Below, one piece after another: positions 24,795-48,062 of a stretch of 64,000 nt of DNA (the stretch's first letter is position 1; every line of letters starts with the position of its first letter). The notes beneath the pieces were generated by a model. The model was given only the letters and a program-made list of their open reading frames with translations. It had not been told where the DNA came from and ran no database searches. The translations under genes and the position numbers were made by a program. This DNA comes from an uncultured Ignavibacteria bacterium (GTDB taxonomy: Bacteria; Zixibacteria; MSB-5A5; SM23-73-2): the NCBI GenBank assembly GCA_964447175.1, contig CAYURP010000001.1, positions 78,208-142,207 on the forward strand, given 5' to 3'.

Positions 24795-25010
24795 TTATAG
24801 GTTGTCCGCTGGGTTTATCACCACCTTACTGTCGTGTTTAAGAATATGGGTGTAAATCATCGTCGTCTTGCGCTTTCTGTGCCCAAGCAGTTCCTGAACT
24901 GTTCGTATGTCATAACTACCTTCCAGCAAATCGTCTGAGAATAGTGCTCACATGTGTTATAGTTTGCAAGCTTGCTGAAGTCGTGTTTACGCCCAGTATG
25001 CTCACTTGGC
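24795..25010 (-). pseudogene. Tyrosine recombinase/integrase remnant. Only the C-terminal catalytic tail is intact. The upstream part is frameshifted or deleted.
   Basis: The minus-strand translation is '[48 protein letters not shown]' (intact over 24795-24947). It contains the box II/Tyr motif 'RTVQELLGH...TTMIYTHV'. The preceding 'H.LRH' box is present only out of frame ('[14 protein letters not shown]'). No N-terminal domain is present. Confidence 0.6.
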
Positions 25011-29895: not shown

Positions 29896-30137
29896 ACAAA
29901 GAGACGGGCAAATTTAAAATTCAAAATTAAAAGTTCAAAATTTAAAATTATAGTTATTGTTTGCCTGGGACAGAGTTATATAGGGACATTCAGGTGATTC
30001 CTGCTCAGGTTTCAAGGATTCTTTTTTTTGAATTTGTTTTTAGACCAGATTAAACCTTTCAGTAGAATTTGTGTCTAAAAGTAAAAAGAATATATCAAAT
30101 AAATGATTTATATAAAGTTAAAAAACGAGGAGACGGA

Positions 30138-32386: not shown

Positions 32387-34338
32387 TTGAACTTAAAAAT
32401 GTCAGCAAAACCTACAAGATGGGGGATATAAAGGTCCCTGCCCTGAGAAATGCCACACTTAAAATAGAAGATGGCGAATTCATCGCCATTATGGGACCTT
32501 CAGGTTCGGGCAAGTCCACCCTCCTGAATATCCTGGGATGCCTGGATGTTCCCACCAGCGGCAAATATCTATTCGATGACATAAACGTCGCAGAATTTTC
32601 CGAATCGCAGCTTGCCCGGATCCGGAATGAGAAGATAGGATTCGTTTTTCAGACTTTTAACCTGCTGCCTCGTTTGAACGCCCTGTCCAATGTGGAGCTT
32701 CCACTTATTTATGGGGGAAATCATACTAAAAGAAAAGATATAGCCATTAATGCGCTGCAGGCGGTTAATCTTGAAGATAGAGCTCATCACCGTCCCAGAG
32801 AATTGTCCGGCGGACAACAACAGCGTGTTGCCATTGCCCGGGCACTGGCCAACCAGCCTTCCATAATTCTTGCGGATGAGCCCACCGGGAATCTGGATTC
32901 TAAATCCGGGAAAGAGATAATGTCAATCCTTTCTGAGTTTAACCAGAAGGGCATGACCATTATTCTGGTAACGCACGATGACTCGGTAGCATCTTATGCT
33001 CAAAGAATCGTACGTTTGAAAGATGGTGAGATTGTGGAAGATCAGAGAACCTCAGGTATGGAGCGGGTTAGCCAGACTACGGTGCCAGCACTTAGCGACA
33101 AGAAGAAAAGAAGGTTCTCCATGGCTGAATTGGTAGAAAGTTTGTCCATGGCAGTATCCTCCATTTTTTCAAATAAACTCCGCAGTTTTCTGACCATGCT
33201 GGGAATTATCGTGGGAGTTTCTGCTGTGATTACCATGATAGCCATAGGTCAGGGGGCTGGTGCTCAGATTACGGAACGTATCAGTAAGCTGGGGGCAAAT
33301 CTTTTGATGGTGCGTCCCGGGGCCTCTCAGAGAGGACCTGCACGATCAGCCAGCGGAAGCATTACCTCTCTCACTTATGAGGATGCCCAGGCCATTGCTG
33401 AGAGAAGCCCCTCTGTGGCTAAAGTGGATGCAGAGTATTCCAGAAATGCTCAGGTGGTCTACGGAAATAAGAATACCAATACCACCATAAATGGAGTGAC
33501 ACCCAGCTATCCCGAAGTAAGAAATTTTCCGGTAGAGCAAGGTTTTTTCCTGACTGATGAGGATAACCGAATTATGAGTCGGGTGGCGGTTCTGGGAAAA
33601 ACGGTGGTCAAAAACCTTTTCGGAGAAGAAAATCCTATAGGACAATACATAAAGATTAAGCGGAGCAATTTTCAGGTTATCGGCGTGATGAGCGAAAAAG
33701 GTAGTAGTGGGCGGAGAGATGAGGACGATATCATCTTTGTTCCACTGAAAACCGCACAGAAAAGGCTATTTGGGGTGGATTATGTATCATCTGTCAATGT
33801 AGAGGCAAAGAATGAGGATGTTATGGACAAAGCATCAGCCGAGATTGCATCTTTGCTCCATGAAAGGCACAATATCAGGGAGGACCAGGAGGACGACTTC
33901 AATATCATGTCTCAGGCAGAGATACTCTCCACCATGCAGGAAACCAGTAACACCTTCACTATGCTTTTAGCCGGTGTTGCCGTGGTTAGCCTTATCGTGG
34001 GAGGAATTGGGATTATGAACATTATGTTTGTGTCCGTTACCGAGAGGACCAGGGAAATAGGCATCCGCAAAGCCATAGGCGCACAGAGGCGTGATATCCT
34101 GAGCCAGTTTCTTATCGAGGCGGTCATAGTGTCTTTGAGCGGCGGAGCAATTGGCGCTCTTTTAGGCATTTTGACCAGTCAACTGGTGAGCAAGTTTGCA
34201 GGCTGGCCCACGGTCATCACCCCCACCTCCGTATTATTGTCCTTCTCCTTTGCCTTTGCGGTGGGACTGTTTTTTGGATTCTATCCAGCCCGTAAGGGCG
34301 CGCTTTTAAACCCTATCGATGCATTGAGATATGAGTAG
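32383..34338 (+). CDS. macB: MacB-type ABC transporter (fused N-terminal ATPase plus C-terminal FtsX permease).
   Basis: Walker A 'GPSGSGKST', signature '[15 protein letters not shown]', Walker B '[11 protein letters not shown]'. The C-terminal 4-TM FtsX domain ends '[10 protein letters not shown]'. Confidence 0.9.
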
Positions 34339-35721: not shown

Positions 35722-36585
35722 ATGGCCTACAAAAACCTCATCCCAATGCGAATGCAAATAGTGATATTCCTGGCATTTGCCGGGATTATCCTTATAGCAG
35801 GTTGCCAGACTCAGGAGGTTGAGACTCGCTGGTCAGCAGAGCCGGTGAAGGTTGACGGTGAAATAACGGAATGGAACAATATGCCTATGAACTATTTTGA
35901 GGAGAGCGGGGTGGGACTGGGTTTATGCAATGACACAGAAAAACTTTACATTCTTTTTCGCTTCAACAACTCCCAATGGGTGCGCGCCATTCGCAGGGGT
36001 GGTTTGACTTTGTGGCTGGATAATTCCGGCAAAAAGAAGAAAGATTTCGGGATCCGTTACACTGGTGGACCATCACTTTCTGATCTGCAAAAAATGGGAG
36101 GGTCTGGTGAGGGTGGATTCAGGGAAAGCCTGACCCCGGAGCAGCAACAGCGTCTTGCGGACAGAGAGAAGGCCATGGCTGATCAAATCACATTCATCAA
36201 CAAAAAAAGCAATCGGGAAATAACATTAAAGGCTGATGGCTCTGGCGGTCCGGCTGTTTGTTTTGACTCTCTTGAGGGGATCTATGCATATGAATTCAGT
36301 ATTCCCCTGCAGAAAGGGGATGCTTTTGATTGTGCCATTGGTGCGAAACCAGGGCAAACTATCTGTCTTGGATTGGAGTGGGGGGGCATGGGTGATCGCC
36401 AGCGCATGAGGTGGGGAGAGGGTAGTGGGATGGGTGCGCCCCCCGGCGGTGGAGGTAGCATGCCACCGGGTGGAGGGGGTATGGGTGGCGGTCCACCAGG
36501 TGGAGGTAGGGGCGGTGCCCGCATGCAACAACCTGAAAAGCAGGAGATCTGGGTGAAAACAAAGCTGTCTTTACCCCCGGCATAA
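35722..36585 (+). CDS. Lipoprotein with a C-terminal Gly/Pro/Met-rich low-complexity tail (hypothetical).
   Basis: Lipobox 'IAGCQT'. The C-terminus has 'GGGGSMPPGGGGMGGGPPGGGRGG'. Confidence 0.45.
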   Translation: MAYKNLIPMRMQIVIFLAFAGIILIAGCQTQEVETRWSAEPVKVDGEITEWNNMPMNYFEESGVGLGLCNDTEKLYILFRFNNSQWVRAIRRGGLTLWLDNSGKKKKDFGIRYTGGPSLSDLQKMGGSGEGGFRESLTPEQQQRLADREKAMADQITFINKKSNREITLKADGSGGPAVCFDSLEGIYAYEFSIPLQKGDAFDCAIGAKPGQTICLGLEWGGMGDRQRMRWGEGSGMGAPPGGGGSMPPGGGGMGGGPPGGGRGGARMQQPEKQEIWVKTKLSLPPA

Positions 36586-36598
36586 CAGGAATAGATCA

Positions 36599-37369
36599 AT
36601 GGGCAGATTTTCTAAATTCAAGGCGCGGTGGGCAGTGGCTTTTTACAGTCCGGTTCTCCTCTTATTATTAAGCTCCTGCGCTACCGTGCCCTCTTCCCAA
36701 AAATATGTGGGCTCGGTTTCCGATCTAAAAAACTCACACCGGATGGATGAATCCTTCCAGGCTTTGTGGGAGAGGCGGACGGTGTATTTCGGTCAGGAAA
36801 GATTGGGCGGAAAACCTTTGCACCTGGGCATCCCTTTTATGACGAGCGGAGAGCGGAGCGGAGATAGCGAATTTCCGCTTCAGATTACAGCCACTTTAAT
36901 GGATTCCCTGCTCATAGAAGCTGGCTTAAAGCACTATGTTTCCCTACTGGGGATGAACTTGGAGGAGGAGGCTGAGTTTCGCAGCTCTTATTTTAGCAGA
37001 TATGATCCTGCAAACCATCTTCTTATCTGGTGTGAACTGCAAACCTCTTGGGCGGAACTCCATCTGAATCTTGACCGCTGGACTATCTTTATCGAGGACC
37101 ATGCTGGTAATCAATATGAACCTGTACAGATATTGGAGGGATCCCCACCCGCTCGTCAAACAATAACGGATATGTTTCCTGATTTCCAGCCCAAACTGAG
37201 GCTTCGGGCATGGGAATTCCATCAAAAGACTATAATGCTTTGCTTCCCAAAGTTCGATTTTTATAAAAACCCCGTTCTTTCAGATGAAATACAATCTCTC
37301 AAATTGATCTTTCAATTGAGTGAGGATCAGAAAACAAGAGCAGAAGGAATCTGGGAATTCAGCGATTAA
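36599..37369 (+). CDS. Hypothetical lipoprotein.
   Basis: Lipobox 'LLSSCAT'. No recognised family. Confidence 0.4.
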   Translation: MGRFSKFKARWAVAFYSPVLLLLLSSCATVPSSQKYVGSVSDLKNSHRMDESFQALWERRTVYFGQERLGGKPLHLGIPFMTSGERSGDSEFPLQITATLMDSLLIEAGLKHYVSLLGMNLEEEAEFRSSYFSRYDPANHLLIWCELQTSWAELHLNLDRWTIFIEDHAGNQYEPVQILEGSPPARQTITDMFPDFQPKLRLRAWEFHQKTIMLCFPKFDFYKNPVLSDEIQSLKLIFQLSEDQKTRAEGIWEFSD

Positions 37370-37528
37370 GCTGGCTCTGAAACATGTGCTAAAAAGAGAG
37401 ATCCTGAGCTAAGCTGTTCTGACAGCAAATCGTGATAAATGTATTATTTAGGCTTAAAATGAACCTGGCAGGATTTGCGTAAATGTAGATAGATGCTTTG
37501 AGCTTACCCAAAGAAAAAAGGAGTTTGA

Positions 37529-38791
37529 ATGAAGAAAATAATAGCTTTGTTTGTCATCGTACTCGTGGTAGTGATTTGGCTGGTTTTCAATCCGTTTAAA
37601 AAATCCGAGTCCAATGAAAACAGCGCCACCAGGAGGTCGACTGCCACAGCCCAGCGGGGTAATCTGGTGATAGCCGTAAATTCAACCGGAGTTATAGAGC
37701 CTACCCTTACAGTGGAGCTGAAATCAAAGGCTTCTGGCGAAATCATCGAGCTGCCCATCGAGGAAGGTGACATGGTAAAGAAGGGCCAGCTCATAGCCCG
37801 TCTTGACCAAAAAACTGCCAAAAACGAGTTTGACCAGGCTCAGGCTGATCTTGAGGTAGCTCAGGTGGCACTTTCTCAGGCCGAAAAACAACTTCAAAGG
37901 CAAAAACAGATGTACGAGCGGGAATTGATCTCAGAGCTGGATTATGAAAATGCATTGCTGGCTAATGAACAGGCAAACTCCAACCTGGTCCGGACAAAAA
38001 CAGCACTGGAAGACGCTAAGGAAAGGCTTTCTGATACCATTATCAAATCGCCCATAGATGGTGTAGTCCTGCAAAAATTTGTGGAAAAAGGCCAGATCAT
38101 AGCTTCGGGCATATCCGCCGTTACCGGTGGAACCACCATCGCAACGGTTGCGGATATGTCCCGGGCATACGTTAAGACCTCAGTAGATGAGGTAGACATC
38201 GGGCAGATCGCACCGAACCAGAAAGCTACGGTTATAGCTGAGACATATCCCGATCGTGAGTTCAACGGCGAAGTTCTGCGAATTCACCCCCTGGCAAAAG
38301 TGGATCAGAACGTAACTACTTTCGATGTAACCATTGAGGTGGACAATTCGGAGGGATTGCTAATGGCAGGAATGAACGCCAGCGTGGAGATAATAGCAGG
38401 CTTCAAGGAGAATGTCTTATTGGTACCCCGGGAAGCCTTGACTGATGCCAGGTCCATAGCCCGGATGGTCGGCTTCAATCCAATGGGTGCCGGTCAGCAA
38501 AGCGATACGAGAAAACCACAAGGTGGAAGCTCAACAGGTGAGCCTCCTCCTGGGATGATGGCAGATAAATCTTCTAATCCCAAACGGATGGTTATTGTCG
38601 TTGCCAATGGTCAGGAGGAGCCGCGAGACGTGGAGATAGGGCTGTCCAATTTCGAGAAAGCAGAGATATTATCCGGTTTGTCTGAGGGGGATACAGTCCT
38701 CACAACAGTAACCTCCAAGGCACTCCAGGATCGGGAGGCTTTTCTGCAGCGAATCAGAGAGCACAGCCAGATTCCCGGTATGGGGAGGTAA
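37529..38791 (+). CDS. Efflux periplasmic adaptor (MFP/HlyD family), second copy.
   Basis: N-terminal TM, coiled-coil hairpin, lipoyl and beta-barrel domains. It is followed by an FtsX permease. Confidence 0.8.
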   Translation: MKKIIALFVIVLVVVIWLVFNPFKKSESNENSATRRSTATAQRGNLVIAVNSTGVIEPTLTVELKSKASGEIIELPIEEGDMVKKGQLIARLDQKTAKNEFDQAQADLEVAQVALSQAEKQLQRQKQMYERELISELDYENALLANEQANSNLVRTKTALEDAKERLSDTIIKSPIDGVVLQKFVEKGQIIASGISAVTGGTTIATVADMSRAYVKTSVDEVDIGQIAPNQKATVIAETYPDREFNGEVLRIHPLAKVDQNVTTFDVTIEVDNSEGLLMAGMNASVEIIAGFKENVLLVPREALTDARSIARMVGFNPMGAGQQSDTRKPQGGSSTGEPPPGMMADKSSNPKRMVIVVANGQEEPRDVEIGLSNFEKAEILSGLSEGDTVLTTVTSKALQDREAFLQRIREHSQIPGMGR

Positions 38792-38795
38792 AAGA

Positions 38796-40013
38796 ATGAT
38801 TTTAGGCGAGCTTATCGGAGTCAGTATCAGCTCCTTACAGGCTAACAAGGTCAGATCTTTTTTGACCATGCTGGGGATAATAATTGGAGTGGCTGCGGTC
38901 ATCACCATGATCTCCCTGGGCCAGGGAGCAAAAAAGGCAGTGTCCGACCGACTGGAAGCATTGGGAACCAATCTTTTGTATATCAGATCAGGAGCGCCTC
39001 GTATGGGAGGCGTCAGGGGACCTGTGGGAGCCCTGGAGCGGTTGGATGAGAAAGACTTAAAGAGACTCAAAGCTGAATGCACAGCCGTGGATAATATCGT
39101 GCCGGAGATCACCGGGTCCCGGCAGGTGATTTATGGCAACTCAAACTGGAACACCATGGTCATCGGCACCAGTCCGGAATACTTTGAGATGAGAAACTTT
39201 AACATTGCCGAAGGTGAAGAGTTTACCCAGAGCGACGTAAACGCATTCAGAAGGGTAGCGGTAGTTGGCCCCACCTTGGTGGAGAACGTTTTTGGAAAGG
39301 TCGATCCTGTGGGCAAATCCATAAGGATAGGTCGGATTAGATTTGACGTGATTGGTGTGACCGAATCCAAGGGCTTATCCGGAGGCTGGATGGATTATGA
39401 TGACATGGTCCTGATTCCTTATACCACGGCTCAGAAACGAGTCTTTGGCATAGACTATTTGAACCGTCTGGTTGCCCGTTTAAAAGACGAATCCCTGGTT
39501 CAGCCCGCCTATTTGGAGATCGAGAGAATTCTGAGGGAATCCCACCGACTCCGGCCTGACCAGGAGAACGACTTTTTCATCCAGTCCCAGTCCGATTTCA
39601 CCGAAGCCAGAGAACAAGCCACCCAGACCCTGACTTATCTTCTGGCAGGAGTAGCCTTGGTCTCTCTGATAGTCGGGGGCATAGGCATAATGAACATCAT
39701 GCTGGTCTCGGTCACCGAAAGAACCCGGGAGATCGGCGTTCGCATGGCAATAGGAGCCAGGCGCAGAGATATCCTGATCCAGTTCGTAATCGAATCTGTC
39801 AGTCTCTCCTTATTAGGTGGGATTATGGGTATATTTATGGGAATAGGGGGTTCCTGGGCATTAGCAAAATTTTTCGGGTGGAGTACGTTTATTGCGCCCG
39901 GTTCAGTAGCCCTGTCATTTCTTTTTGCCTTTGCCGTAGGCATCTTTTTCGGCATCTACCCCGCCCGCAAAGCCTCCCTTTTACATCCCATTGAGGCTTT
40001 GAGGTACGAGTAA
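38796..40013 (+). CDS. ABC transporter permease, FtsX/MacB-type. It has a periplasmic domain plus 4 TM helices and no fused ATPase.
   Basis: Homologous to the C-terminal half of the 32383..34338 product. It ends 'LLHPIEALRYE*'. Confidence 0.85.
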   Translation: MILGELIGVSISSLQANKVRSFLTMLGIIIGVAAVITMISLGQGAKKAVSDRLEALGTNLLYIRSGAPRMGGVRGPVGALERLDEKDLKRLKAECTAVDNIVPEITGSRQVIYGNSNWNTMVIGTSPEYFEMRNFNIAEGEEFTQSDVNAFRRVAVVGPTLVENVFGKVDPVGKSIRIGRIRFDVIGVTESKGLSGGWMDYDDMVLIPYTTAQKRVFGIDYLNRLVARLKDESLVQPAYLEIERILRESHRLRPDQENDFFIQSQSDFTEAREQATQTLTYLLAGVALVSLIVGGIGIMNIMLVSVTERTREIGVRMAIGARRRDILIQFVIESVSLSLLGGIMGIFMGIGGSWALAKFFGWSTFIAPGSVALSFLFAFAVGIFFGIYPARKASLLHPIEALRYE

Positions 40014-40028
40014 AACCACAAGAATTCT
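39978..40028 (+). repeat. Left copy of an imperfect direct repeat of about 50 bp, spanning the last 11 codons of the FtsX permease gene plus 15 nt beyond the stop. The right copy is at 43846-43896.
   Basis: 'cttttacatcccattgaggctttgaggtacgagtaaaaccacaagaatt' against 'cttttacatcccattgaagctttgaggtatgaataaaagcccacaataatt'. Confidence 0.7.
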
Positions 40029-40139
40029 TGCTTGATAATTACCAGTACAGGGTGGTGAGGAAATTACACGAATATCTGAAGCGGAATCAGACTCTTACTG
40101 CTTTGGGGTCGGTATTTCTTGGCATCCAAAAATTTATAC

Positions 40140-40168
40140 TTGACAATCGGGACGGAAATTAGTATATG
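40140..40168 (+). promoter_or_regulatory. Putative sigma70-type promoter (TTGACA-N17-TATATG) inside the inserted segment, 140 nt upstream of the PHP-ATPase gene.
   Basis: Sequence 'ttgacaatcgggacggaaattagtatatg'. Confidence 0.3.
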
Positions 40169-40306
40169 GTAACTACAGGAGCAGAGAAAAATGGGGAAAC
40201 CCCAGGGAATTTATGTGGTACATTGGCCTAGCGCTATGAAGAAAAACTTTATTGGTATTTCACGAAGGTTTAGTATACAGAAAACTAGACTGAGAGGAAA
40301 GCAGGC

Positions 40307-43063
40307 GTGAGCCCACAAGGTTTGTCTTTCAAGAAGTTCGATTTACATATCCATACTCCTGCCTCGCAGTGTTTTGCTGATAGATTTGAGGATGAGAAAT
40401 CAGCAGCACAAGCGATAGTCAAAGAGGCGACTAAGAAAGAATTAGCAGCAATAGCAATCACTGATCATAATACCGGCAGATTCATAGATTTGGTGAGAAG
40501 GGAAGCCAAAGGGACGAATCTTACTGTTTTCCCGGGAGTAGAAATCACCGTTGGAGATGCCCATAATCATGTTTTAGCAATTCTGGATGTGGATAAGACA
40601 AGCACGGATATCGATGAGCTATTGATGGTGCTGGGTATTCCAAGCAAGGTTCGGGGCAAGAAAGAAGCGTTTTCGGACAAGACTGTAGTCCAAGCAATAG
40701 ACATAATATGCAAAAGACCTTTCCACGGCATCGTTGTCCCGGCACACATTGACACAACAAATGGTATCTTTGAGCAGATGACAGGTCAGCCCCGAATAGA
40801 GGTAATCCAAAAGCCCGAAATCATAGCAGTAGAAGCGGTGGACTACGCAAAAGTGTCCAAATTGTTAAGTGGCCAAGATCCAAACTACAGACGAAAACTT
40901 ACGGTTTATCAGTCTTCCGACAATCCGAGCCTCGGCGATGACGGGAAACTCATTACATCAGGAGCCCATTCGGGGATGCATAGTATTAATGGTATCGGAT
41001 ATAGATACACGTACTTCAATGTGGATGAGAAAATCAATTTAGAGAGTCTGCGACAATGCTTCATTGATCCCGAGGTAAGAATAAGACAAAGCTGGGAATA
41101 CGAGAAAGGTGTCTACCCCCACGTGAAGAAGGTAAATATCAATAGTGGTTTTCTGGACGACGTCAAAGCTGAGTTTCATCCAGGTTTGAATAGCATATTA
41201 GGTGCTAAAGGAGTGGGCAAGTCTCTTTTGATAGAATTCATAAGATTTGCACTTGATCAAGAGCCGTCACAAGAGGAAGCAAAAATTGATCATGTTAACA
41301 AATTGGAAGCGCAACTACGTCAGTATGGTGAGGTTGAAGTTATAGCCTGTGACGAAACCGGGAAAGAATTCCAGATCAAAAGAACCTATGACCCTGCGGA
41401 AAACAACCCCCTTCATTGCATAGATATATCTAAAAATGAAGTTATTGATGTCAATATCTCTAAGTTATTCCCAGTTATTGCACTTAGCCAAAACGAGATT
41501 ATCAAGATAGCTGAAGACAAAGCGGATGAACAGTTACGCTTCATTGACAGATTTTTTGATTTTCATTTGTACAAGGATCAAATTGATTATCTGGAAGACG
41601 AGTTGCAAGAGCTAGATAGAGAATTCTCAACTACAATCAGATCTTTTCATGAAGGAGCGAAGTTGACAAAACAACTACAAACTGCAAAGGTTGAATTGGA
41701 AAGACTCACAGAGCAACTCAAAAATCCTATCTTTACGGAAATAGGGAAGTACGAATCAAAGGATAAAGTTTTTAGCACTCAGGAGAGGTACTTAGCTACT
41801 TTGAAGGATTACATCTTGAAGCTCATAAATATCATCAAACAGGAGAAGACACCTGTCCTAGGTGCGGACTTGTCGAATGACCCTTCGCTCAAGAGGAACA
41901 TGGATATACTCACGACAACAAAATCAAAGTTGTTGGATGACCTTACTTCTCACATAGAAATGGTAGATACATCTACTCAAAGAGTGATTGCTGAACATCA
42001 AAAATCGTTGCCAGCCTTTAATCAGAAGAAAAACGAATTAAAAGAAATAGTGCTGAAGTTAGGGGGGGATGTCCAATCCTTAGAGCAAAAAAGGAAAAAT
42101 AAGATAAAAGAAATAGAGAATATTGAAACGAAGTTGTCGTCTACAGAAGCAAAAGCACAACGAACAAAAGAGATATTTGAGAAAAGGGAGGAGATGCTTC
42201 GGGAACTGAAGGGAGTATATAGTTCATATTTTCGAGAAAGGAAGGGAAAATGCGAATTCTTTGAAAAGGCGTCCGATGGCAACCTCAAGATCGAAATACA
42301 AGAATCATCTAATATAGACGAATTCAAGAATCGTCTGCTAAGTTTGAAACGAGGATCATATTTGAGAGATGTTGAAATAGAACAGATATGTGAAAAAGTC
42401 TCTCCTCAAGATTTTATTCTAGAATTACTCAGGTATGACATATTGCTGGTAGACAAACCATCACAGGCGGGCAGTAGAATTAAGCAATTATCCAGAATGG
42501 CTGAATTACCTCCTGAAAAAATTAAGGGGCTCGTTGATTACCTGCTGGTACTAATTGAGGATGGACAATTAGAGTACGAGGACTTATTACGTTTGCAATA
42601 TAAGGCATACCCTGTAGATCGACCTGTCATTATGTACAACATAGGAGACAATACTAATCCCAAATATGAATCTTTAGACAAGGTGTCGACAGGGCAAAAA
42701 TGCACAGCAATGCTCATTCTGGCGTTAAGCGATAGCAAGATGCCCATAATTATTGATCAACCAGAAGATTCTATAGACATAAAAACAATTTGGCACGATA
42801 TGTGTTTGAAGATTAGAAGTGGAAAGGAACGAAGACAGTTTATATTCACCACTCACAATTCCAGTGTGGCTGTCGCTTCTGATACCGATAAGTTCATGAT
42901 AATGACAGGCACAGCCTCCAGTGGAGAGATCGTTTTGTCTGGCACCGTGGACAATGAAAACATAAGGAAAGAAATCATTGACTATCTGGAGGGTGGGCTC
43001 ACAACATATAGGTTGAAATATCTGAAATACAACATGCCGAAGGCTATGGACGGATCAAAGTAG
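40307..43063 (+). CDS. PHP-domain phosphoesterase fused to an SMC/SbcC/ABC-type ATPase (918 aa). Ppl-like single-gene candidate anti-phage defence protein. GTG start.
   Basis: The N-terminus has 'FDLHIHTPAS...AAIAITDHNT', the PHP His/Asp metal ligands. The middle has Walker A 'GAKGVGKSLL' and a Q-loop 'ALSQNE', followed by coiled-coil-prone sequence of about 350 aa. The C-terminus has the ABC signature 'STGQK', Walker B 'IIIDQPEDSID' and the H-loop 'TTHN'. Confidence 0.75.
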   Translation: MSPQGLSFKKFDLHIHTPASQCFADRFEDEKSAAQAIVKEATKKELAAIAITDHNTGRFIDLVRREAKGTNLTVFPGVEITVGDAHNHVLAILDVDKTSTDIDELLMVLGIPSKVRGKKEAFSDKTVVQAIDIICKRPFHGIVVPAHIDTTNGIFEQMTGQPRIEVIQKPEIIAVEAVDYAKVSKLLSGQDPNYRRKLTVYQSSDNPSLGDDGKLITSGAHSGMHSINGIGYRYTYFNVDEKINLESLRQCFIDPEVRIRQSWEYEKGVYPHVKKVNINSGFLDDVKAEFHPGLNSILGAKGVGKSLLIEFIRFALDQEPSQEEAKIDHVNKLEAQLRQYGEVEVIACDETGKEFQIKRTYDPAENNPLHCIDISKNEVIDVNISKLFPVIALSQNEIIKIAEDKADEQLRFIDRFFDFHLYKDQIDYLEDELQELDREFSTTIRSFHEGAKLTKQLQTAKVELERLTEQLKNPIFTEIGKYESKDKVFSTQERYLATLKDYILKLINIIKQEKTPVLGADLSNDPSLKRNMDILTTTKSKLLDDLTSHIEMVDTSTQRVIAEHQKSLPAFNQKKNELKEIVLKLGGDVQSLEQKRKNKIKEIENIETKLSSTEAKAQRTKEIFEKREEMLRELKGVYSSYFRERKGKCEFFEKASDGNLKIEIQESSNIDEFKNRLLSLKRGSYLRDVEIEQICEKVSPQDFILELLRYDILLVDKPSQAGSRIKQLSRMAELPPEKIKGLVDYLLVLIEDGQLEYEDLLRLQYKAYPVDRPVIMYNIGDNTNPKYESLDKVSTGQKCTAMLILALSDSKMPIIIDQPEDSIDIKTIWHDMCLKIRSGKERRQFIFTTHNSSVAVASDTDKFMIMTGTASSGEIVLSGTVDNENIRKEIIDYLEGGLTTYRLKYLKYNMPKAMDGSK

Positions 43064-43138
43064 TAAAACTGAAATTATTTCGAAACGTATCGGCATTAAG
43101 AAATGCGGATGCCGAGGGACGAATGAGTTTCGGCAATT

Positions 43139-43165
43139 TCCCCCCGCAAAATGCGGGGGGTCTTG
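43139..43165. terminator. Bidirectional terminator-like hairpin between the convergent PHP-ATPase and DUF4242 genes.
   Basis: 'cccccgcaaaatgcggggggtcttgt' has a 7-bp G/C stem. Confidence 0.45.
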
Positions 43166-43225
43166 TGACTATTACCGAAGCATCACAGATAATATCAAGG
43201 CTGCAGCTTATATGTTATCTTTGAT

Positions 43226-43501
43226 TTATCTGAAGTTTTCCGAGTGAATCATGAACTTATCATCTAATTTGTAGATCCCTTCTGTCGGAAAGTTCTGCGC
43301 TGCTTTAGCGATCACTTTACGTATAGACTCAGCATCTTTTGCATCCCACTCACAGTATAATTTGCCTTCCTCGCGTGCATACCAGCTTCTAACCCAGTAA
43401 GCATCAACTCCGTGATTCGCCTTGATGGCCTTAGCAACAGGTGTAGCGGCTTCCAAGGTCAGCTCTTTGCCTGCGGGATGAATAACTAAGAATTTTGCCA
43501 T
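43226..43501 (-). CDS. DUF4242-family small protein.
   Basis: 91 aa, 'MAKFLVIH...GVDAYWVRSWYAREEGKLYCEWDAKDAESIRKV...EGIYKL'. This matches the DUF4242 pattern. Confidence 0.5.
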   Translation of the reverse strand: MAKFLVIHPAGKELTLEAATPVAKAIKANHGVDAYWVRSWYAREEGKLYCEWDAKDAESIRKVIAKAAQNFPTEGIYKLDDKFMIHSENFR

Positions 43502-43559
43502 TTTTTGTCACCTCCTTCGCCATTTCATACCTTATGTTATGCAATTTACTTCAAGTAGT

Positions 43560-44340
43560 CAAGAAAAAAACACCTTCAACTTGGGCCAGGTCCGTGACCA
43601 AGTTGTGTCCAGCGAAATCTTGTAGGCACTAATTTCCTCCGTGCCAGCGCGAATAAATTCGTGCCTACAATTTATCATCAGATTTACAAAAAAAGAGATT
43701 GTTCAGTATGTAGCGGAAGACTTTTCCGCCTCGGGCGGATTCCGCCACAGACGGGGAGCCTCCCATTTTAAGTTCTAATGGAAACCTTATGGTTTCCTCT
43801 TTCCCCATCCCGTCCCCTGGAAGACTAAAGTCTTCCTCTACATAACTTTTACATCCCATTGAAGCTTTGAGGTATGAATAAAAGCCCACAATAATTTTAT
43901 TCCTTGTTGGAATTAGATTTTCAATTTTGTAGTTGCCCAATTTATTGGGCTTTTTTAACCGATGAATCGGCAAACTACAAATTCAGTTGATGAATCGAGA
44001 AACTACAAATCTGTTTCATCTGTTGGAAATCATCATAAGATTGGATTTATCCCCCCCGACCCCTGGAAGACTAAAGTCTTCCGCTACATAATAAAACAAT
44101 CTCCTTTCGTGCTGTTGGGTCCCCAGACCCAACAGATGATTAGACTTTTCCCACCAGGTCAGGGGACCTGGCGGCACTGGTATAACCAGGTGAACCTGAA
44201 GTCGAAGATCCCGCCCCAGGCGGGGGTTCACACTCCAATAGCAAAAGCCCACCTTGAGGCAAGGTGGGCTACCCAGTCCCGATCCCTGGAAAACTGAAGT
44301 TTTCCACTACATAATGAATACATTATAATAGCCCAGCTTA
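43560..44340. repeat. Mosaic array of structured repeat families H1-H6 and a partial 95-bp element. It includes an 11-codon FtsX-gene 3' fragment (43846-43880).
   Basis: Direct inspection. H6 is at 43636-43686 and an inverted H2 half at 43715-43731. Further H2 copies are at 43806-43842, 44051-44089 and 44278-44312. H4 is at 43926-43988, with a partial second copy to 44010. H5 is at 44011-44057 and H3 at 44103-44177. The partial 95-bp element lies near 44200-44230. H1 is at 44244-44273. Confidence 0.8.
44244..44273 (-). terminator. Rho-independent terminator for the minus-strand gene 44343..45620 (the H1 hairpin).
   Basis: The minus strand reads 'ggtagcccaccttgcctcaaggtgggctttt', a 9-bp stem followed by a T-tract. 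Confidence 0.5.
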
Positions 44341-44342
44341 AA

Positions 44343-45620
44343 TTACCTAATGACCCAGATGCGGACCCTGACCCAATCGACGACAGTATCATTGCTTTGC
44401 CGGGTCACTCTGATTATGGAATTGTCCAGATCGTACCAGTAAGCTCCCCTATACGTGGTGCTATTTTGGAAGCCTCCGAAGCCTTCTTGATGGGGCCCCG
44501 TAACGCCCCCGCTGTTGTCATAGAACACAAGGTCAACAACATAATCATTATAGCTGCCTCCAAGATTGTGGGTGAACGTTTTGGTCTCGCCTTGACTGAT
44601 CGACACCCACCCGCTGTTATAGTCGGGCTGGGGGAAACCGAAGTAGTTCTTGACTTCATTGTCGGATACGTCGATATTGCCTTCCACATCCAGCTTTTCA
44701 CTGGGACTTGTAGTTCCGATGCCTACATTGCCTGCGCTTTCAATAAACATCTTTGTTGTAGCATTTGTTTGAAAATGTAAATCTGCCCAGCCACCTCCTC
44801 CGGCATGAGCATTAATTTTAAAACCATCTCCGCCACCATCATGCTTTAACTCCCCATAAACGGTTGAATAAGTAGGGTCTTCTCCGACTCGGATATGGTT
44901 TGCCACGTGAAGATCATCATTCGGGGTGGTGGTTCCGATGCCCACGTTGGCGTTTCTGAGTACAATCTTATTACCGGGATCATCAATTTCCAAGTAAACT
45001 TGATTTCCTATGCCGTCAGGGTCACCAAGCCTAACATTATAACCGTTTGTTACAATAGAAGGCTCAGCAAGATTTGGATATACTCCAAAGTCTCCACCTC
45101 CAACTGTTAGCTTTTCACCGGGGCTTGCCGTCCCGACGCCTACCTTGTCCGTGTTGGCCTCTAATCTAACCACTGACCCATCATCTACCCATCCCCCACC
45201 ACTGCCAACGACGGATCCAGCTACGGCTGCACTGTCTGCCACCAGCGCCCGATAAGCATAGGGCATGCTGGTTAACCTGATTCTGGGAGAAATCTCCGCA
45301 TCTGTGCCCACGGTTATTCCGAAATACCTAACGGTGTCGTCGAAAAGGGAAGCGGGTATGGGATTTGTTCCTCCCAGTATTACGTTAAACAATCCGTCGG
45401 TCACCGTTACCCCGGAATGATACTCATACCACAAAGAATCATTCCCTGATTCAGAACCATAGATTTTGAAGTTCAAATCATACGAGCCGTTCAACGGATC
45501 CCCAGTATCACTGGTCAACATTCCCTGATAGTTGATCATATGAGGAATCTCAGCCCAGCAGGGATTGGCTACCAGACTGAGAAGAGCTATGATGGTTAAT
45601 ATAAAAAGCGCACGCATCAC
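44343..45620 (-). CDS. Secreted protein, paralogue A. It has a tail-fibre-like N-terminal repeat domain and a divergent C-terminal domain.
   Basis: Signal peptide. The N-terminal 165 aa are about 60% identical to the 46016..47539 product ('INYQGMLTD..G.PLNG.Y.L.FKIY....G...LW.E......V..GLFNV.LG...PIP.S.F.DT.RY.GITV..D.E.SPRIRLTS.PYAYRALVADSAAVAG'). Confidence 0.6.
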   Translation of the reverse strand: MMRALFILTIIALLSLVANPCWAEIPHMINYQGMLTSDTGDPLNGSYDLNFKIYGSESGNDSLWYEYHSGVTVTDGLFNVILGGTNPIPASLFDDTVRYFGITVGTDAEISPRIRLTSMPYAYRALVADSAAVAGSVVGSGGGWVDDGSVVRLEANTDKVGVGTASPGEKLTVGGGDFGVYPNLAEPSIVTNGYNVRLGDPDGIGNQVYLEIDDPGNKIVLRNANVGIGTTTPNDDLHVANHIRVGEDPTYSTVYGELKHDGGGDGFKINAHAGGGGWADLHFQTNATTKMFIESAGNVGIGTTSPSEKLDVEGNIDVSDNEVKNYFGFPQPDYNSGWVSISQGETKTFTHNLGGSYNDYVVDLVFYDNSGGVTGPHQEGFGGFQNSTTYRGAYWYDLDNSIIRVTRQSNDTVVDWVRVRIWVIR

Positions 45621-45624
45621 ATAC

Positions 45625-46012
45625 CTCCGATTGGTTTGAGGGTTAACGTTTTTAAATAATTAAATGGAAAATTCTTTCTATGGCAAGAAAAAAGTAGCAG
45701 TGGAGCTCTGCCTCCGCCTGGTAATTGCTTCTGTAGTTACTCAATTTATTGGGATTTGTTAGCTCGATGAATCGACAATTGCAGAATAATCTGTTTCATC
45801 TGTTGGGAAGCAACATAGAGTTGAGTTCACCCCACTTCTTCCCCTGGAAGACTGAAGTCTTCCACTACATTTTAAAAATCCCCTGGAAACCTTTCGTGCT
45901 GTCGGGTCCCCAGACCCGACACATAATTGGGCTCTTCCCGCCAGGTCAGGGGCCTGGCGAGCACAAGAGATAAGATCACATGATCTTCCGACTTTCGTTT
46001 CAAATATGACCT
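45625..46012. repeat. Mosaic repeat array: H4 (about 45731-45790), H5 (45791-45835), H2 (45836-45870) and H3 (45889-45964).
   Basis: Same families as at 43.9-44.2 kb, in the same order. Confidence 0.8.
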
Positions 46013-46015
46013 TGT

Positions 46016-47539
46016 CTACCTATCCTTAATCTCTTTCTCGCTTTGCTGTCCCAGCTGCTTTGCTATCTCCTCTCTTATTTCCGTAAGCTTTGTTTCAAAT
46101 TCAGCACGCACAGCTTCAGTTTCAGCTTTCACCCGCTCAGCGATCGCCACTTCGATTTGAGCCTGGGTAGGATCGAGGTGACCCTCATTTAGTGAAGAAC
46201 TGGCAAAAATAACGCCATACGAAGTTGGGAAGAAAAGTATGGTAAGATTAGCGTCAAATATGCAGCTGAAGGATCCGGCGTCCTTTTGGCCAAGGAAATA
46301 GAAGTTGTTGATCCCAGCCTCTACCTCAAAAAACCCGTGAACCGTGACAATATCACGATAAGTCATATTGCCCCAGGTGCTTTGAATTACCATCCAGTTG
46401 TTTTGGTCAGCTGGAAACACGCCCGCTTCATCGGAAACGCCAAATTGTAGTATTTCATTCGTACCAGAGCTGTGCGACACATATATATTCCCGGTGCCGA
46501 TTACAAATGCATATCCACTAGTGGGGAAAACCATCATACGACCCAGAATGGTTTTGACTGTGCCGTCCAACTCCACGGAACTCGTGGTTCGTTGATTGTT
46601 CCCAATTCCAGCTTCATTCTTGATCTCTGCGTTAGAAATTGAGCTAGTGGGAAGCATTACTGACGAATCATCACTTGAATACATGTCAAAGATTACAGAA
46701 CGGTCACTACCAGTTATGGAGACCATCGGTTCTTGCGTATTATTCCAGTTGCCGTCGACCATAAATCCATATTGCCCTGCTGAGTCACGCATAACCTCAA
46801 AAAATCCGCCGCCACCGGAGCTATAGTCACTATGAATGATATGGGAGATATTCCCTGTTCGATCGTTAAAGCGAAGGTCCATACCACCTCCAGGCAACTC
46901 TGCAGCATACATAATCTCCGAGGGCGACTCGTCCCCATAAAATAGGAACTTACCGTCTTCTGATGTTGAGCCTAAACGAAGTTGACTGCCAATAAGAGAA
47001 TCTGAAGCGTGAATATCACCTGCAACATCAAGCTTAGTCGATGGAGTGGATGTGCCTATTCCGACATAATCAGTCCCAGTCTCCAATCTGACCACTGTTC
47101 CATCATCTACCCATCCTCCAACCCCGCCAGTTCCTAATCCAGCTACGGCAGCGCTATCTGCCACCAGCGCCCGGTAAGCATAGGGTATGCTGGTTAACCT
47201 TATTCTGGGTGAGAGTTCTGGATCAGATTCAACTGTGATCCCCAGATACCTCAGAGTGTCGTTGAACACAGATGAAGGTATGGGAGTTGTGCTTCCCAAT
47301 ATCACATTGAATAACCCGTTTTCAACTGATATCCCGGTCTGGGCTTCAGTCCACAAAGCTGATCCACCAGAGGATTGACTGTAGATTTTGAAGGTTAAGT
47401 TATAGTCCCCATTCAAAGGATTCCCTCCGGTATCTGTGAGCATTCCCTGGTAATTCATCAGGAAGGGAATCCCAGCCCAGCACACGGCAGCAGCCAGCAT
47501 AAATGCCCCAATGACCGCTCCCACAAGAAGCTTTTTCAT
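46016..47539 (-). CDS. Secreted protein, paralogue B. Tail-fibre-like N-terminal repeat domain and a long variable C-terminal region ending in a coiled coil.
   Basis: Signal peptide. Conserved N-terminus as in paralogue A. The C-terminus is 'IEVAIAERVKAETEAVRAEFETKLTEIREEIAKQL'. The 5' leader is conserved with paralogue A ('aaacgttaaccctYaaacc'). Confidence 0.6.
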   Translation of the reverse strand: MKKLLVGAVIGAFMLAAAVCWAGIPFLMNYQGMLTDTGGNPLNGDYNLTFKIYSQSSGGSALWTEAQTGISVENGLFNVILGSTTPIPSSVFNDTLRYLGITVESDPELSPRIRLTSIPYAYRALVADSAAVAGLGTGGVGGWVDDGTVVRLETGTDYVGIGTSTPSTKLDVAGDIHASDSLIGSQLRLGSTSEDGKFLFYGDESPSEIMYAAELPGGGMDLRFNDRTGNISHIIHSDYSSGGGGFFEVMRDSAGQYGFMVDGNWNNTQEPMVSITGSDRSVIFDMYSSDDSSVMLPTSSISNAEIKNEAGIGNNQRTTSSVELDGTVKTILGRMMVFPTSGYAFVIGTGNIYVSHSSGTNEILQFGVSDEAGVFPADQNNWMVIQSTWGNMTYRDIVTVHGFFEVEAGINNFYFLGQKDAGSFSCIFDANLTILFFPTSYGVIFASSSLNEGHLDPTQAQIEVAIAERVKAETEAVRAEFETKLTEIREEIAKQLGQQSEKEIKDR

Positions 47540-47544
47540 TACGG

Positions 47545-48062
47545 GACTCCTTTCGGTTTAAGGATTAACGTTTAAGGTAAATATCTGATATTTGTCCTTT
47601 TTGTCAAGTAGTTTTTATGGTTACAGATGCCTACATGTTAAGAGAGGATACGATTTTATCCCTGCCAGCACGAATAGAATTCGTGCCTACAATTGCTCAT
47701 CAGATTTTTCGTGGTGTTGGGTCCCCAGACCCGACAGATAATTGGGCTTTCCCGTCAGGTCAGGGGACCTGGCGGCACCAATACGGTCTCCTCTACATAA
47801 TAAAAAGCCCACCTTGAGGCAAGGTGGGCTACCGGATCCCGACCCCTGGAAAACTAAAGTTTTCCTCTACATATTAAAACCCTGAGTGCTTTTGTAGTTG
47901 CCCAATTCATTGGGCTTCTTTTAGCCGATTAATCGGCAAACTACAAATTTGCTTGACAAATCAAGTGACTACAAGTCTGTTTCATCTGTTGGGAATCTCT
48001 ATAGGATGGGATTTATCCCCTCTCTTCCCTTGGAAAACTGAAGTTTTCCGCTACATTTTAAA
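47545..48062. repeat. Mosaic repeat array: H6 (47659-47709), H3 (47706-47779), H1 (47802-47833), H2 (47833-47873), H4 (47889-47965), H5 (47975-48020) and H2 (48017-48056).
   Basis: Direct inspection. Confidence 0.8.
47802..47833 (-). terminator. Rho-independent terminator (H1 hairpin), about 230 nt downstream of the minus-strand gene 48066..49541.
   Basis: The minus strand reads 'ggtagcccaccttgcctcaaggtgggcttttta'. Confidence 0.45.

What the first reader, a model, noticed from the sequence alone, without database searches (positions are those of the whole stretch)
39978..43896. A 3.8-kb cassette carrying a PHP-nuclease plus SbcC/ABC-ATPase fusion (Ppl-like candidate defence gene), inserted at the 3' end of an efflux permease gene
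Seen in sequence: a 918-aa ORF combines an N-terminal PHP phosphoesterase domain (HxH...DHN ligands) with a Rad50/SbcC-like ABC ATPase. The ATPase has Walker A, a long coiled-coil middle, an 'STGQK' signature, Walker B 'IIIDQPED' and an H-loop. This is a one-polypeptide analogue of SbcCD in which a PHP nuclease replaces Mre11. It also matches the architecture described for the single-gene 'Ppl' (PHP plus ATPase) anti-phage system in published defence screens, as far as I recall. The segment 40029-43845 is bracketed by imperfect direct repeats of about 50 bp (39978-40028 and 43846-43896). The right-hand copy is an orphan fragment of the last 11 codons of the FtsX permease gene ('LHPIEALRYE*'). 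This is the signature of site-specific insertion or target duplication. The cassette brings its own putative promoter, a convergent DUF4242 gene and structured repeats. The PHP-ATPase is the best candidate in this window for an under-characterised immunity or DNA-processing system. Its PHP-plus-long-coiled-coil variant may differ from characterised Ppl.
Basis: partly seen in the sequence, partly recalled or inferred. Interest (0 to 1): 0.85.

Follow-up and report, generated by a model that had tools for sequence, protein, structure and literature searches.

The report
Ppl/TrlF-like defence nuclease in insertion hotspot
A single 918-residue gene that fuses a PHP nuclease to a Rad50-like ATPase, a divergent relative of the known anti-phage protein Ppl, sits in a spot just after an efflux-pump gene where related Zixibacteria carry other cargo or nothing; it is a new member of a known kind.

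Summary
ORF 40307-43063 (+) encodes a 918-aa protein with an N-terminal PHP phosphoesterase and a Rad50/SMC-type ABC ATPase. All metal ligands and ATPase motifs are conserved. It matches the PADLOC Ppl model end to end (E 2e-46). It just passes NCBIfam's "TrlF family AAA-like ATPase" cut-off (362 vs 350 bits) and is far below the Ppl equivalog cut-off (196 vs 1000). It is therefore a divergent branch of the known Ppl/TrlF superfamily, with the same architecture as Ppl.

The roughly 49-nt direct repeat of the FtsX 3' end is real. The right copy is the original gene end, still followed by its native terminator. Orthologous loci in related Zixibacteria lack the gene. One locus is empty, one holds a type II restriction-modification system, one holds an integrase-fragment island bracketed by a 150-nt repeat of the same gene end, and one holds a NOV_C gene set. 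The site is a recurrent insertion hotspot.

The DUF4242 gene is not cargo-specific: it is present in the relative whose slot is empty. The promoter and GC arguments are weak. Anti-phage function and the Ppl-like mechanism are inferred, not shown.

The parts
38796..40013 (+). FtsX/MacB-type permease gene (405 aa), the last gene of an MFP-FtsX efflux pair. Its 3' end is the insertion target.
   Evidence: Pfam MacB_PCD and FtsX. Orthologues at 70-91% aa identity are named Zixibacteria.
39978..40026 (+). Left copy of the direct repeat: the last 36 nt of FtsX, including the stop codon, plus 13 nt. Its post-stop sequence resembles that of the occupied loci L091 and L094.
40027..40306 (+). Leader region specific to this genome. 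It has a TTGACA at 40140 with a poor -10 hexamer. The small ORFs (44 aa and 39 aa) are not conserved in homologous loci.
   Evidence: Similarity to L001 starts only at 40331.
40307..43063 (+). PHP-nuclease / Rad50-like ABC-ATPase gene (918 aa), a divergent member of the TrlF/Ppl superfamily.
40307..41092 (+). PHP phosphoesterase domain (residues 1 to about 262). Ligands: H14/H16 (40346-40354), D53-H54-N55 (40463-40471), E79, H88, H147, D205, H225.
   Evidence: Pfam PHP. PDB profile hits to RNase AM 7ug9 and PHP phosphoesterases. Foldseek hit to 7ug9. Invariant columns.
41201..41224 (+). Walker A motif GAKGVGKS (residues 299-306).
41564..42271 (+). Antiparallel coiled-coil insert (residues about 420-655, five long helices). 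It has no CxxC zinc hook; the only cysteine there is C649.
   Evidence: AF2 model secondary structure; sequence.
42686..42856 (+). C-terminal ATPase lobe motifs: signature STGQK (42686-42700), Walker B IIIDQPED (42746-42769), H-loop H850 (42854-42856).
43073..43139 (.). Segment 'X', a palindrome-containing spacer. It is where homology to relatives resumes, 10 nt after the gene's stop codon. It is followed by a G+C hairpin at 43140-43160 that L093 lacks.
   Evidence: blastn against L091 8339-8404 and L093 6707-6755.
43226..43501 (-). SCO4226-like (DUF4242) gene, 91 aa. It is resident at this locus in L093 without the PHP-ATPase, so it is not a partner of that gene.
   Evidence: It is next to none of the homologues examined.
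43698..43845 (.). Inverted pair of REP-like hairpin elements (43702-43724 inverted, 43800-43845 direct). The pair abuts the right repeat.
43846..43894 (+). Right copy of the direct repeat: an orphan FtsX 3' end (LLHPIEALRYE*). By comparison with L093 it is the original gene end.
43895..44006 (+). Native downstream flank of FtsX, with its terminator-like hairpin (43935-43950 plus a T-run). It has been displaced 3.9 kb from the gene.
   Evidence: Terminator scan. Colinear with L093 6458-6572.

Best explanation
The gene encodes a stand-alone nuclease-ATPase of the Ppl/TrlF superfamily. It lies in a recurrent insertion hotspot immediately after the FtsX permease gene of a Zixibacteria genome.

Shown here:
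- A PHP phosphoesterase with a complete metal-ligand set is fused to a Rad50/SMC-type ABC ATPase head, which is split by a coiled coil of about 235 residues.
- The protein is colinear with Ppl.
- No neighbouring gene is conserved across homologues.
- The gene is absent from orthologous loci.
- The FtsX 3' end is duplicated, and the native terminator now follows the orphan copy.

Inferred, by homology to E. coli Ppl as summarised in PMC12904381 and in the title of Xu et al., Mol Cell 2026:
- The protein dimerises through its ATPase heads.
- It is held inactive while NTPs are abundant.
- When phage replication depletes NTPs and exposes 3'-OH DNA ends, its PHP domain degrades DNA 3'-to-5' and stops the infection.

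The gene most likely arrived on a small integrative element that carried a mimic of the FtsX 3' end. That element has since lost its integrase and been reshuffled among the local REP-like repeats.
For: Family and architecture:
- PADLOC Ppl model, positions 6-889 of 894, E 2.2e-46.
- NCBIfam TrlF model 361.7 bits against a cut-off of 350, over the full length.
- End-to-end BLASTP to an annotated Ppl (24% identity, E 2e-35) and to a B. cereus TrlF (26%, E 3e-74), with all motifs aligned.
- Invariant catalytic residues in 36 homologues.
- AF2 model with pLDDT 85, whose ATPase resembles Rad50, SMC, JetC, MukB, RecF and LmuB and whose PHP domain resembles RNase AM.

Defence-type distribution:
- 769 clusters at 50% identity with E <= 1e-30.
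- Neighbours include type I RM plus a reverse transcriptase, a TaqI_C methylase, a helicase plus N6-methylase, DUF1156/DUF262/DUF499, an integrase plus DUF4365, HEPN/NTase, PemK plus a serine recombinase, and a WYL regulator.
- No neighbour is shared between contexts.
- Homologues also occur on conjugative plasmids and in two phages.

Insertion:
- L093 (FtsX 86% identical) has the same synteny without the gene.
- L091/L092 (91%) carry HTH_3, an N6_N4 methylase and HinfI in the same slot.
- L094 (81%) carries a tyrosine-integrase fragment between repeats of about 150 nt of the same FtsX end.
- L107 has an 85-aa, 171-aa and NOV_C gene set where L113 has 35 nt.
- The right repeat plus flank is colinear with L093's single FtsX end and terminator.
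Against: - No experiment bears on this protein or on any member of its clade.
- It is only 24% identical to Ppl. It scores 196 bits on the Ppl equivalog model (cut-off 1000) and sits at the very edge of the TrlF model. Its 65%-identical relative P0003 falls below that cut-off at 331 bits. Trigger and substrate could therefore differ.
- No integrase or remnant of one lies between the repeats.
- DUF4242 and segment X lie inside the repeats here but outside, to the right of the native flank, in L093. A single clean integration does not explain the layout.
- L091 and L107 have cargo without any repeat.
- GC content does not mark the gene as foreign.
- The primary Ppl paper could not be read. The mechanism comes from secondary summaries.
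Confidence: 0.65

Rival explanations
1. The cargo was swapped by homologous recombination rather than integrated site-specifically. On this reading, FtsX on the left and segment X (plus DUF4242) on the right are conserved anchors, and the gene replaced other cargo, such as the RM system of L091, by allelic exchange. The duplicated FtsX end plus flank (43846-44045) would then be a separate local rearrangement between two REP-like copies (43800-43845 and 44046-44091).
For: - Homology to L091 stops 4 nt after the FtsX stop codon and resumes at X, 10 nt after the PHP-ATPase stop codon. RM and PHP-ATPase therefore occupy exactly the same slot.
- L091 and L107 have cargo but no repeat.
- The orphan block is bracketed precisely by two 46-nt REP-like copies.
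- There is no integrase in the segment.
Against: - L094 shows an integrase-bearing segment bracketed by a 150-nt repeat of the same gene end. This is the classic footprint of integration into a gene's 3' end.
- The three coding differences between the two copies are all synonymous. The left copy resembles the L091/L094 alleles and the right copy resembles L093. This fits an incoming mimic of the gene end better than an in-situ duplication.
Confidence: 0.25
2. It is one component of a TRL-type (temperature-restriction-locus) module like Photorhabdus trlR-trlF-trlG. In that case its activity would depend on, or serve, a TrlG (AlbA_2 + HATPase_c_4) partner and a small regulator, and the phenotype would be stress- or temperature-linked growth arrest rather than direct phage defence.
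For: It reaches the NCBIfam TrlF family cut-off. TrlF is defined from that operon (PMC7554251). Some homologues have a small HTH gene overlapping their start (L002/L003).
Against: - There is no trlG-like or trlR-like gene beside it. Its neighbours are FtsX and DUF4242.
- None of the 8 homologous contexts examined shows an AlbA_2/HATPase_c_4 partner.
- In Photorhabdus no mutations mapped to trlF.
- Bona fide single-gene Ppl itself scores above the TrlF cut-off (475 bits), so TrlF membership does not imply a TRL operon.
Confidence: 0.05
3. It is a housekeeping DNA-repair enzyme: a one-polypeptide analogue of SbcCD/Mre11-Rad50 that processes hairpins or double-strand breaks in the host chromosome.
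For: The ATPase head resembles Rad50, RecN and RecF. PHP domains serve as proofreading and repair exonucleases in PolX and PolC (one search hits to PolC; statement in 10.1101/2025.09.30.679545).
Against: - It is absent from the same locus in relatives whose FtsX is 81-91% identical.
- Its contexts are variable and dominated by mobile elements and defence genes, and it occurs on plasmids and phages.
- It has no zinc hook.
- The nearest characterised relative is an anti-phage protein.
Confidence: 0.05

Closest known systems
Ppl (PHP + ATPase single-gene anti-phage system; Gao et al. 2020 from my own knowledge; mechanism in Xu et al., Mol Cell 2026;86:180, cited via PMC13434339 ref. 51 and PMC12904381)
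   Same: - Single gene with the same domain order and length (893 vs 918 aa).
- Colinear alignment from residue 5 to 905.
- Shared motifs: PHP HxH, DHN, E and H ligands; Walker A; xxGQK signature; DQPED Walker B; H-loop.
- Full-length match to the PADLOC Ppl HMM.
   Different: - 24% identity.
- 196 bits on the NCBIfam Ppl equivalog model, against a cut-off of 1000 and 1325 bits for a true Ppl.
- Phylum Zixibacteria, versus Enterobacteria and their plasmids.
- No functional data, so trigger and substrate are untested.
TrlF family AAA-like ATPase (NCBIfam NF045780; named after Photorhabdus trlF, PMC7554251)
   Same: Full-length match above the curated cut-off (361.7 vs 350 bits). Annotated TrlF proteins on plasmids are 22-28% identical end to end and lie beside RM and other defence-type genes.
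   Different: It sits at the edge of the model. Annotated members score 517-636 bits, Ppl itself scores 475, and the window's clade scores 331-388. It has no trlR or trlG partner.
SbcCD / Mre11-Rad50
   Same: A Rad50-type ABC ATPase head interrupted by an antiparallel coiled coil, working with a metal-dependent nuclease.
   Different: The nuclease is a PHP fold fused in cis, not a calcineurin-like Mre11 subunit. The coiled coil is about 235 residues in all and lacks the CxxC zinc hook. It is not a conserved housekeeping operon.
Genomic islands integrated into the 3' end of a gene, with direct-repeat att sites (tyrosine-integrase islands) and defence-island hotspots
   Same: The target gene's 3' end is duplicated, the gene is reconstituted at the left junction, and cargo varies at the same site in related genomes. 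A relative (L094) has an integrase fragment between the repeats.
   Different: There is no integrase in this copy. The repeat is only about 49 nt and 88% identical. The content between the repeats includes a gene (DUF4242) that is resident elsewhere at the locus in a relative.

Membership tests
Ppl (anti-phage protein Ppl) | N-terminal PHP phosphoesterase domain with an intact metal-ligand set | tested here: met
   Pfam PHP E 2.8e-5. PDB profile hits to PHP enzymes at 1e-9. Ligands invariant in 36 homologues and aligned to those of Ppl.
Ppl (anti-phage protein Ppl) | C-terminal SMC/Rad50-like ATPase in the same polypeptide, colinear over the whole length | tested here: met
   PADLOC PDLC02208, positions 6-889 of 894. 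BLASTP residues 5-905 vs 4-888 of WP_042015172.
Ppl (anti-phage protein Ppl) | Acts as a single gene, with no conserved partner | tested here: met
   No neighbour is shared among the contexts examined. This is consistent with, but does not prove, single-gene sufficiency.
Ppl (anti-phage protein Ppl) | Sequence-level orthology (NCBIfam equivalog NF042955 cut-off of 1000 bits) | tested here: not met
   196.3 bits. A true Ppl scores 1325.5.
Ppl (anti-phage protein Ppl) | Protects against phage; ssDNA 3'-5' exonuclease inhibited by NTPs and activated by 3'-OH ends | not testable with these tools
   Known only from the literature on E. coli Ppl (PMC12904381; PMC13434339 ref. 51).
TrlF family AAA-like ATPase (NF045780) | Full-length HMM score at or above the curated cut-off of 350 bits | tested here: met
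   361.7 bits, residues 5-897 against model positions 2-932 of 944. The margin is small: relative P0003 scores 331.
TRL operon (trlR-trlF-trlG, Photorhabdus) | Adjacent trlG (AlbA_2 + HATPase_c_4) and a small regulator trlR | tested here: not met
   The neighbours are FtsX and an SCO4226-like gene. The upstream small ORFs are not conserved.
SbcCD / Mre11-Rad50 | Separate Mre11/SbcD calcineurin-like nuclease, and a zinc hook at the coiled-coil apex | tested here: not met
   No Metallophos gene is adjacent. There is no CxxC in residues 420-655.
Integrase-mediated island at a gene's 3' end | Direct repeats of the target gene's end bracketing the insert | tested here: met
   39978-40026 and 43846-43894, 88% identity, 0 expected by chance.
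Integrase-mediated island at a gene's 3' end | An integrase gene within the insert | tested here: not met
   tblastn with integrases from L094 and L004 finds nothing in 40014-43900. The relative L094 has an integrase fragment.
Integrase-mediated island at a gene's 3' end | An unoccupied site in related genomes with a single copy of the repeat | tested here: met
   L093 has a single FtsX end colinear with the left copy up to 40026 and with the right copy from 43846. However, L093 carries DUF4242 to the right of the flank.

The most novel reading that the evidence does not exclude
The 3' end of this MFP-associated FtsX gene may be the attachment site of a family of small integrative islands in Zixibacteria that shuttle different defence cargos (Ppl/TrlF-like nuclease, type II RM, NOV_C nuclease). 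In addition, the clade to which this protein belongs may sense a different trigger or cut a different substrate from E. coli Ppl. That clade comprises roughly 900-aa proteins from uncultured lineages, at the edge of every curated model.
Probability: 0.3. Interest if true: 0.45.

Novelty: new member of a known kind. Interest (0 to 1): 0.3.

Why it matters
This extends the Ppl/TrlF nuclease-ATPase superfamily into an uncultured phylum, Zixibacteria. It shows that the family is large, with 769 clusters at 50% identity, and that curated models cover it only at their margin. Automated defence annotation will therefore label many members inconsistently.

The locus also gives a clean natural example of a defence-cargo hotspot. 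The same intergenic slot holds a Ppl-like gene, a restriction-modification system, an integrase island, a NOV_C set or nothing. That is useful for mining further cargo in these genomes.

It does not open a new mechanism. The expected biochemistry is that already described for Ppl.

Tried and rejected
- Exact look-up of the 918-aa protein's contig: not on record.
- Genome-contig scan with FtsX: saturated by generic FtsX motifs. The best hit was 52% identical and no orthologue was returned.
- Metagenome DNA scan with the 26-nt repeat core: 0 hits.
- A second scan with a conserved FtsX 23-mer gave 25 loci. Only L107 and L113 were new orthologues with downstream sequence.
- GC content as evidence of foreign origin: rejected, because the gene is within 1 SD of the window's genes.
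- Promoter claim: not above chance.
- Integrase remnant inside the repeats: none.
- Conserved partner gene or upstream regulator: none.
- Rfam families and tRNA genes in 39900-46100 and 36000-48000 as alternative att targets or structured RNAs: none.
- A solved Ppl structure in the PDB, by sequence, profile or fold: none found. Only generic PHP, Rad50, SMC and AriA matches appeared.
- Reading the primary Ppl paper: not held.
- DUF4242 as a functional partner or part of the cargo: rejected. It is present in L093 without the gene, and in L090 it sits in an unrelated context.
Full report
**1. What is in the sequence**

The ORF at 40307-43063 (+) is real and encodes 918 aa. Pfam finds four domains:
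- PHP at residues 12-103, at E 2.8e-5. Its 25.0 bits fall just under the gathering score of 26.4.
- SMC_N spanning 284-859.
- AAA_21 at 734-854.
- AAA_23 at 284-472.

An alignment with 36 homologues of 44-69% identity has invariant or nearly invariant columns at every position expected for the two enzymes:
- PHP ligands: H14 and H16 (HxH; H14 is nearly invariant, H16 invariant), D53-H54-N55, E79, H88, H147, D205, H225.
- ATPase motifs: Walker A G299-S306, Q395, signature S794-K798, Walker B and D-loop D817-D824, H850.

An AlphaFold2 model built on that alignment has mean pLDDT 85. It shows four parts:
- a PHP barrel at about residues 1-262;
- an ABC head whose N lobe is 270-415 and whose C lobe is 770-905;
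- five long helices at 420-655 that form a coiled-coil insert;
- a small helical domain at 660-762.

Foldseek against the PDB returns Rad50, SMC, JetC, MukB, RecF, RecN and LmuB heads for the ATPase, and RNase AM (7ug9) for the PHP part. A profile search of PDB sequences gives the same picture, plus AriA. The coiled coil has no CxxC hook.

**2. Which family**

- The PADLOC Ppl model matches over positions 6-889 of 894 at E 2.2e-46.
- NCBIfam places the protein just above the cut-off of 'TrlF family AAA-like ATPase' (361.7 vs 350 bits).
- It is far below the cut-off of the 'anti-phage protein Ppl' equivalog (196 vs 1000 bits).

I calibrated these scores with annotated proteins taken from plasmids.

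| Protein | Ppl model (bits) | TrlF model (bits) |
|---|---|---|
| True Ppl (Raoultella plasmid) | 1325 | 475 |
| Annotated TrlF proteins | 272-529 | 517-636 |
| Window's protein | 196 | 362 |
| Four relatives (P0003, P0011, P0074, P0102) | 164-208 | 331-388 |

Ppl is therefore nested inside the broad TrlF model. The window's clade is a more divergent branch that curated models reach only marginally.

BLASTP against the Raoultella Ppl is colinear from residue 5 to 905 (24% identity, E 2e-35). Against a B. cereus TrlF it gives 26% identity and E 3e-74.

The family is large. An exhaustive phmmer search finds 769 clusters at 50% identity with E <= 1e-30, nearly all 860-920 aa long.

**3. What is known about the family**

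TrlF was named from the Photorhabdus temperature-restriction locus trlR-trlF-trlG. There, all selected mutations fell in trlG and none in trlF (PMC7554251).

Ppl is a single-gene anti-phage system. A 2026 review describes E. coli Ppl as an ssDNA 3'-5' exonuclease. NTPs bound to both its PHP and NTPase domains inhibit it. It is activated by phage-induced nucleotide depletion together with 3'-OH ends made by phage homing endonucleases (PMC12904381). The primary paper is Xu et al., Mol Cell 2026;86:180 (reference 51 of PMC13434339). It is not in the library, so I rely on these summaries. A phage counter-defence, Bas63 gp130, has also been reported (PMC11482910).

**4. Genomic context of homologues**

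None of the contexts examined is a conserved housekeeping operon:

| Locus | Neighbours |
|---|---|
| L001 (65% identical) | WYL regulator |
| L002/L003 | type I RM upstream, overlapping HTH_17 gene, reverse transcriptase downstream |
| L004/L005 | integrase fragment and DUF4365 |
| L099 | TaqI_C-type methylase upstream, HEPN/NTase pair downstream |
| L100 | PemK toxin, serine recombinase, HTH genes |
| Plasmid copies | IS26, a helicase plus N6-methylase, an AimR arbitrium receptor, DUF1156/DUF262/DUF499 |

Two phages carry homologues. No neighbouring protein is shared between contexts. No AlbA_2/HATPase_c_4 (TrlG-like) partner appears.

**5. The repeat and the insertion**

The repeat is real. 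It is 43 nt at 88% identity by the repeat finder and about 49-51 nt by blastn. The core occurs twice, against 0 expected. The three differences inside the coding part are all synonymous.

FtsX homologues identify the organism as a member of candidate division Zixibacteria. Contigs carrying the closest FtsX orthologues show the state of the same site:

- **L093** (86% aa identity) has identical synteny: two hypothetical genes, MFP, FtsX, DUF4242 on the minus strand, then the 424-aa and 506-aa genes. It lacks the PHP-ATPase and has a single FtsX end.
- **L091/L092** (91%) have an HTH_3 gene, an N6_N4 methyltransferase and a HinfI endonuclease in the slot.
- **L094** (81%, GCA_030615745.1) has the catalytic half of a tyrosine integrase and a 185-aa gene. 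These lie between two nearly identical copies of about 150 nt, comprising the last 112 nt of FtsX plus about 37 nt.
- **L107** (70%) has an insertion of about 1.56 kb with 85-aa, 171-aa and NOV_C genes. **L113** (71%) has 35 nt there, before a shared DUF1761 gene.

In the window, homology to L091 ends 4 nt after the FtsX stop codon. It resumes at 43073, which is 10 nt after the PHP-ATPase stop codon. The cargo private to this genome is therefore about 3.05 kb.

The right repeat copy plus the next 110 nt is colinear with L093's single FtsX end and its terminator hairpin (43935-43950 plus a T-run). The orphan fragment is thus the original gene end, and the insertion separated FtsX from its terminator. 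No + strand terminator-like site lies between FtsX and the new gene, so read-through transcription is possible.

The post-stop sequence of the left copy resembles L091 and L094. That of the right copy resembles L093. This fits an incoming element that brought its own version of the gene end.

**6. What does not fit a single clean integration**

- DUF4242 and the adjacent palindromic segment X (43073-43139) lie inside the repeats here. In L093 they lie to the right of the native flank, outside any repeat. L091 has X but no DUF4242.
- The orphan block 43846-44045 is bracketed exactly by two 46-nt REP-like copies.
- There is no integrase between the repeats.
- The DUF4242 segment is 91.6% identical to L093, while the flanking genes are about 82% identical. 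In another relative (L090) the same gene sits in an unrelated context near Y1 transposase genes.

I conclude that the slot is a hotspot with a layered history. The integration model is favoured, but a cargo swap between conserved anchors plus a REP-mediated rearrangement remains a serious rival.

The GC content of the gene (0.402) is not an outlier among the window's genes. Promoter-like sites are at chance level. No Rfam family or tRNA gene is present.

**7. Mechanism**

| Statement | Status |
|---|---|
| The domains, motifs, fold, single-gene status, patchy presence and hotspot insertion described above | shown |
| ATP-sandwich head dimerisation, as in Rad50/SMC proteins | inferred from family knowledge |
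| NTP-inhibited 3'-5' exonuclease, licensed by nucleotide depletion and free 3'-OH ends, that aborts or blocks phage replication | inferred from Ppl |
| That this divergent clade uses the same trigger | not known |

**8. Verdict**

The thing is a new, divergent member of a known and recently characterised kind. Interest is modest, at 0.3. It rests mainly on the hotspot and on the poor model coverage of this clade.

Noticed in passing
window 28467-28489, 43814-43836, 44060-44082, 44283-44305, 45841-45863, 47843-47865 (+); inverted partial copy 43702-43724; also L091 8434-8478 and L093 7325-7457 and 9028-9059: A REP-like family with the sequence CCCCTGGAAGACTAAAGTCTTCC(N)CTACATAA. It forms a 7-8 bp hairpin (z about -3.4 to -4.6). 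Two copies carry a compensatory change (GGAAAAC/GTTTTCC). One inverted pair (43698-43845) folds as a long, REPIN-like hairpin. A related genome (L090) encodes Y1 (RAYT/IS200-like) transposases.
   Followed up: partly
window 44343-45620 (-), 46016-47539 (-); downstream modules 43925-44314 and 45729-45964: Tandem paralogous genes (425 and 507 aa) share an N-terminal region of about 130 residues with the motif INYQGxLTD..G.PLNG.Y.L.FKIY. They have no Pfam hit. Each is followed by a repeated non-coding module of about 250 nt (repeat families D3, D5, D7).
   Followed up: partly
window 43226-43501 (-) and flanks 43170-43575: The SCO4226-like (DUF4242) gene and its short flanks are 91.6% identical to L093, whereas the neighbouring genes are about 82% identical. 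Its 90% cluster has 91 members. In L090 it lies in an unrelated context. It may itself be mobile or under unusually strong constraint.
   Followed up: partly
window 24795-24929 (-): A 44-aa ORF (…[17 protein letters not shown]…) is the C-terminal catalytic fragment of a tyrosine recombinase. It is a decayed integrase about 15 kb from the finding.
   Followed up: no
L091 5890-8184 and L092 2801-5104: A complete type II RM module (HTH_3 controller-like gene, N6_N4 methyltransferase, HinfI-family endonuclease) occupies the same post-FtsX slot in the closest relative found.
   Followed up: partly
L094 9111-9260 and 11889-12036: A direct repeat of about 150 nt, nearly identical between copies, made of the FtsX 3' end plus 37 nt. 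It brackets a 2.7-kb segment holding a truncated tyrosine integrase and a 185-aa gene with no Pfam match. A DDE transposase and a PDDEXK_3 gene lie further downstream.
   Followed up: partly
window 30069-34338: A second, complete MacAB-TolC-type set (OEP, MFP, and a MacB with ABC and FtsX domains fused) lies just upstream. The MFP-FtsX pair at 37529-40013 has no ATPase gene of its own.
   Followed up: no
phage records OM046624.1 8630-11242 and PQ189346.1 10337-12923: A Yersinia phage and a Vibrio phage-like element each carry a PHP-ATPase homologue (27-28% identity; aligned pieces cover 67% and 57% of the query between residues 5 and about 905). They are annotated as 'chromosome partition protein' or 'hypothetical protein'.
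   Followed up: no
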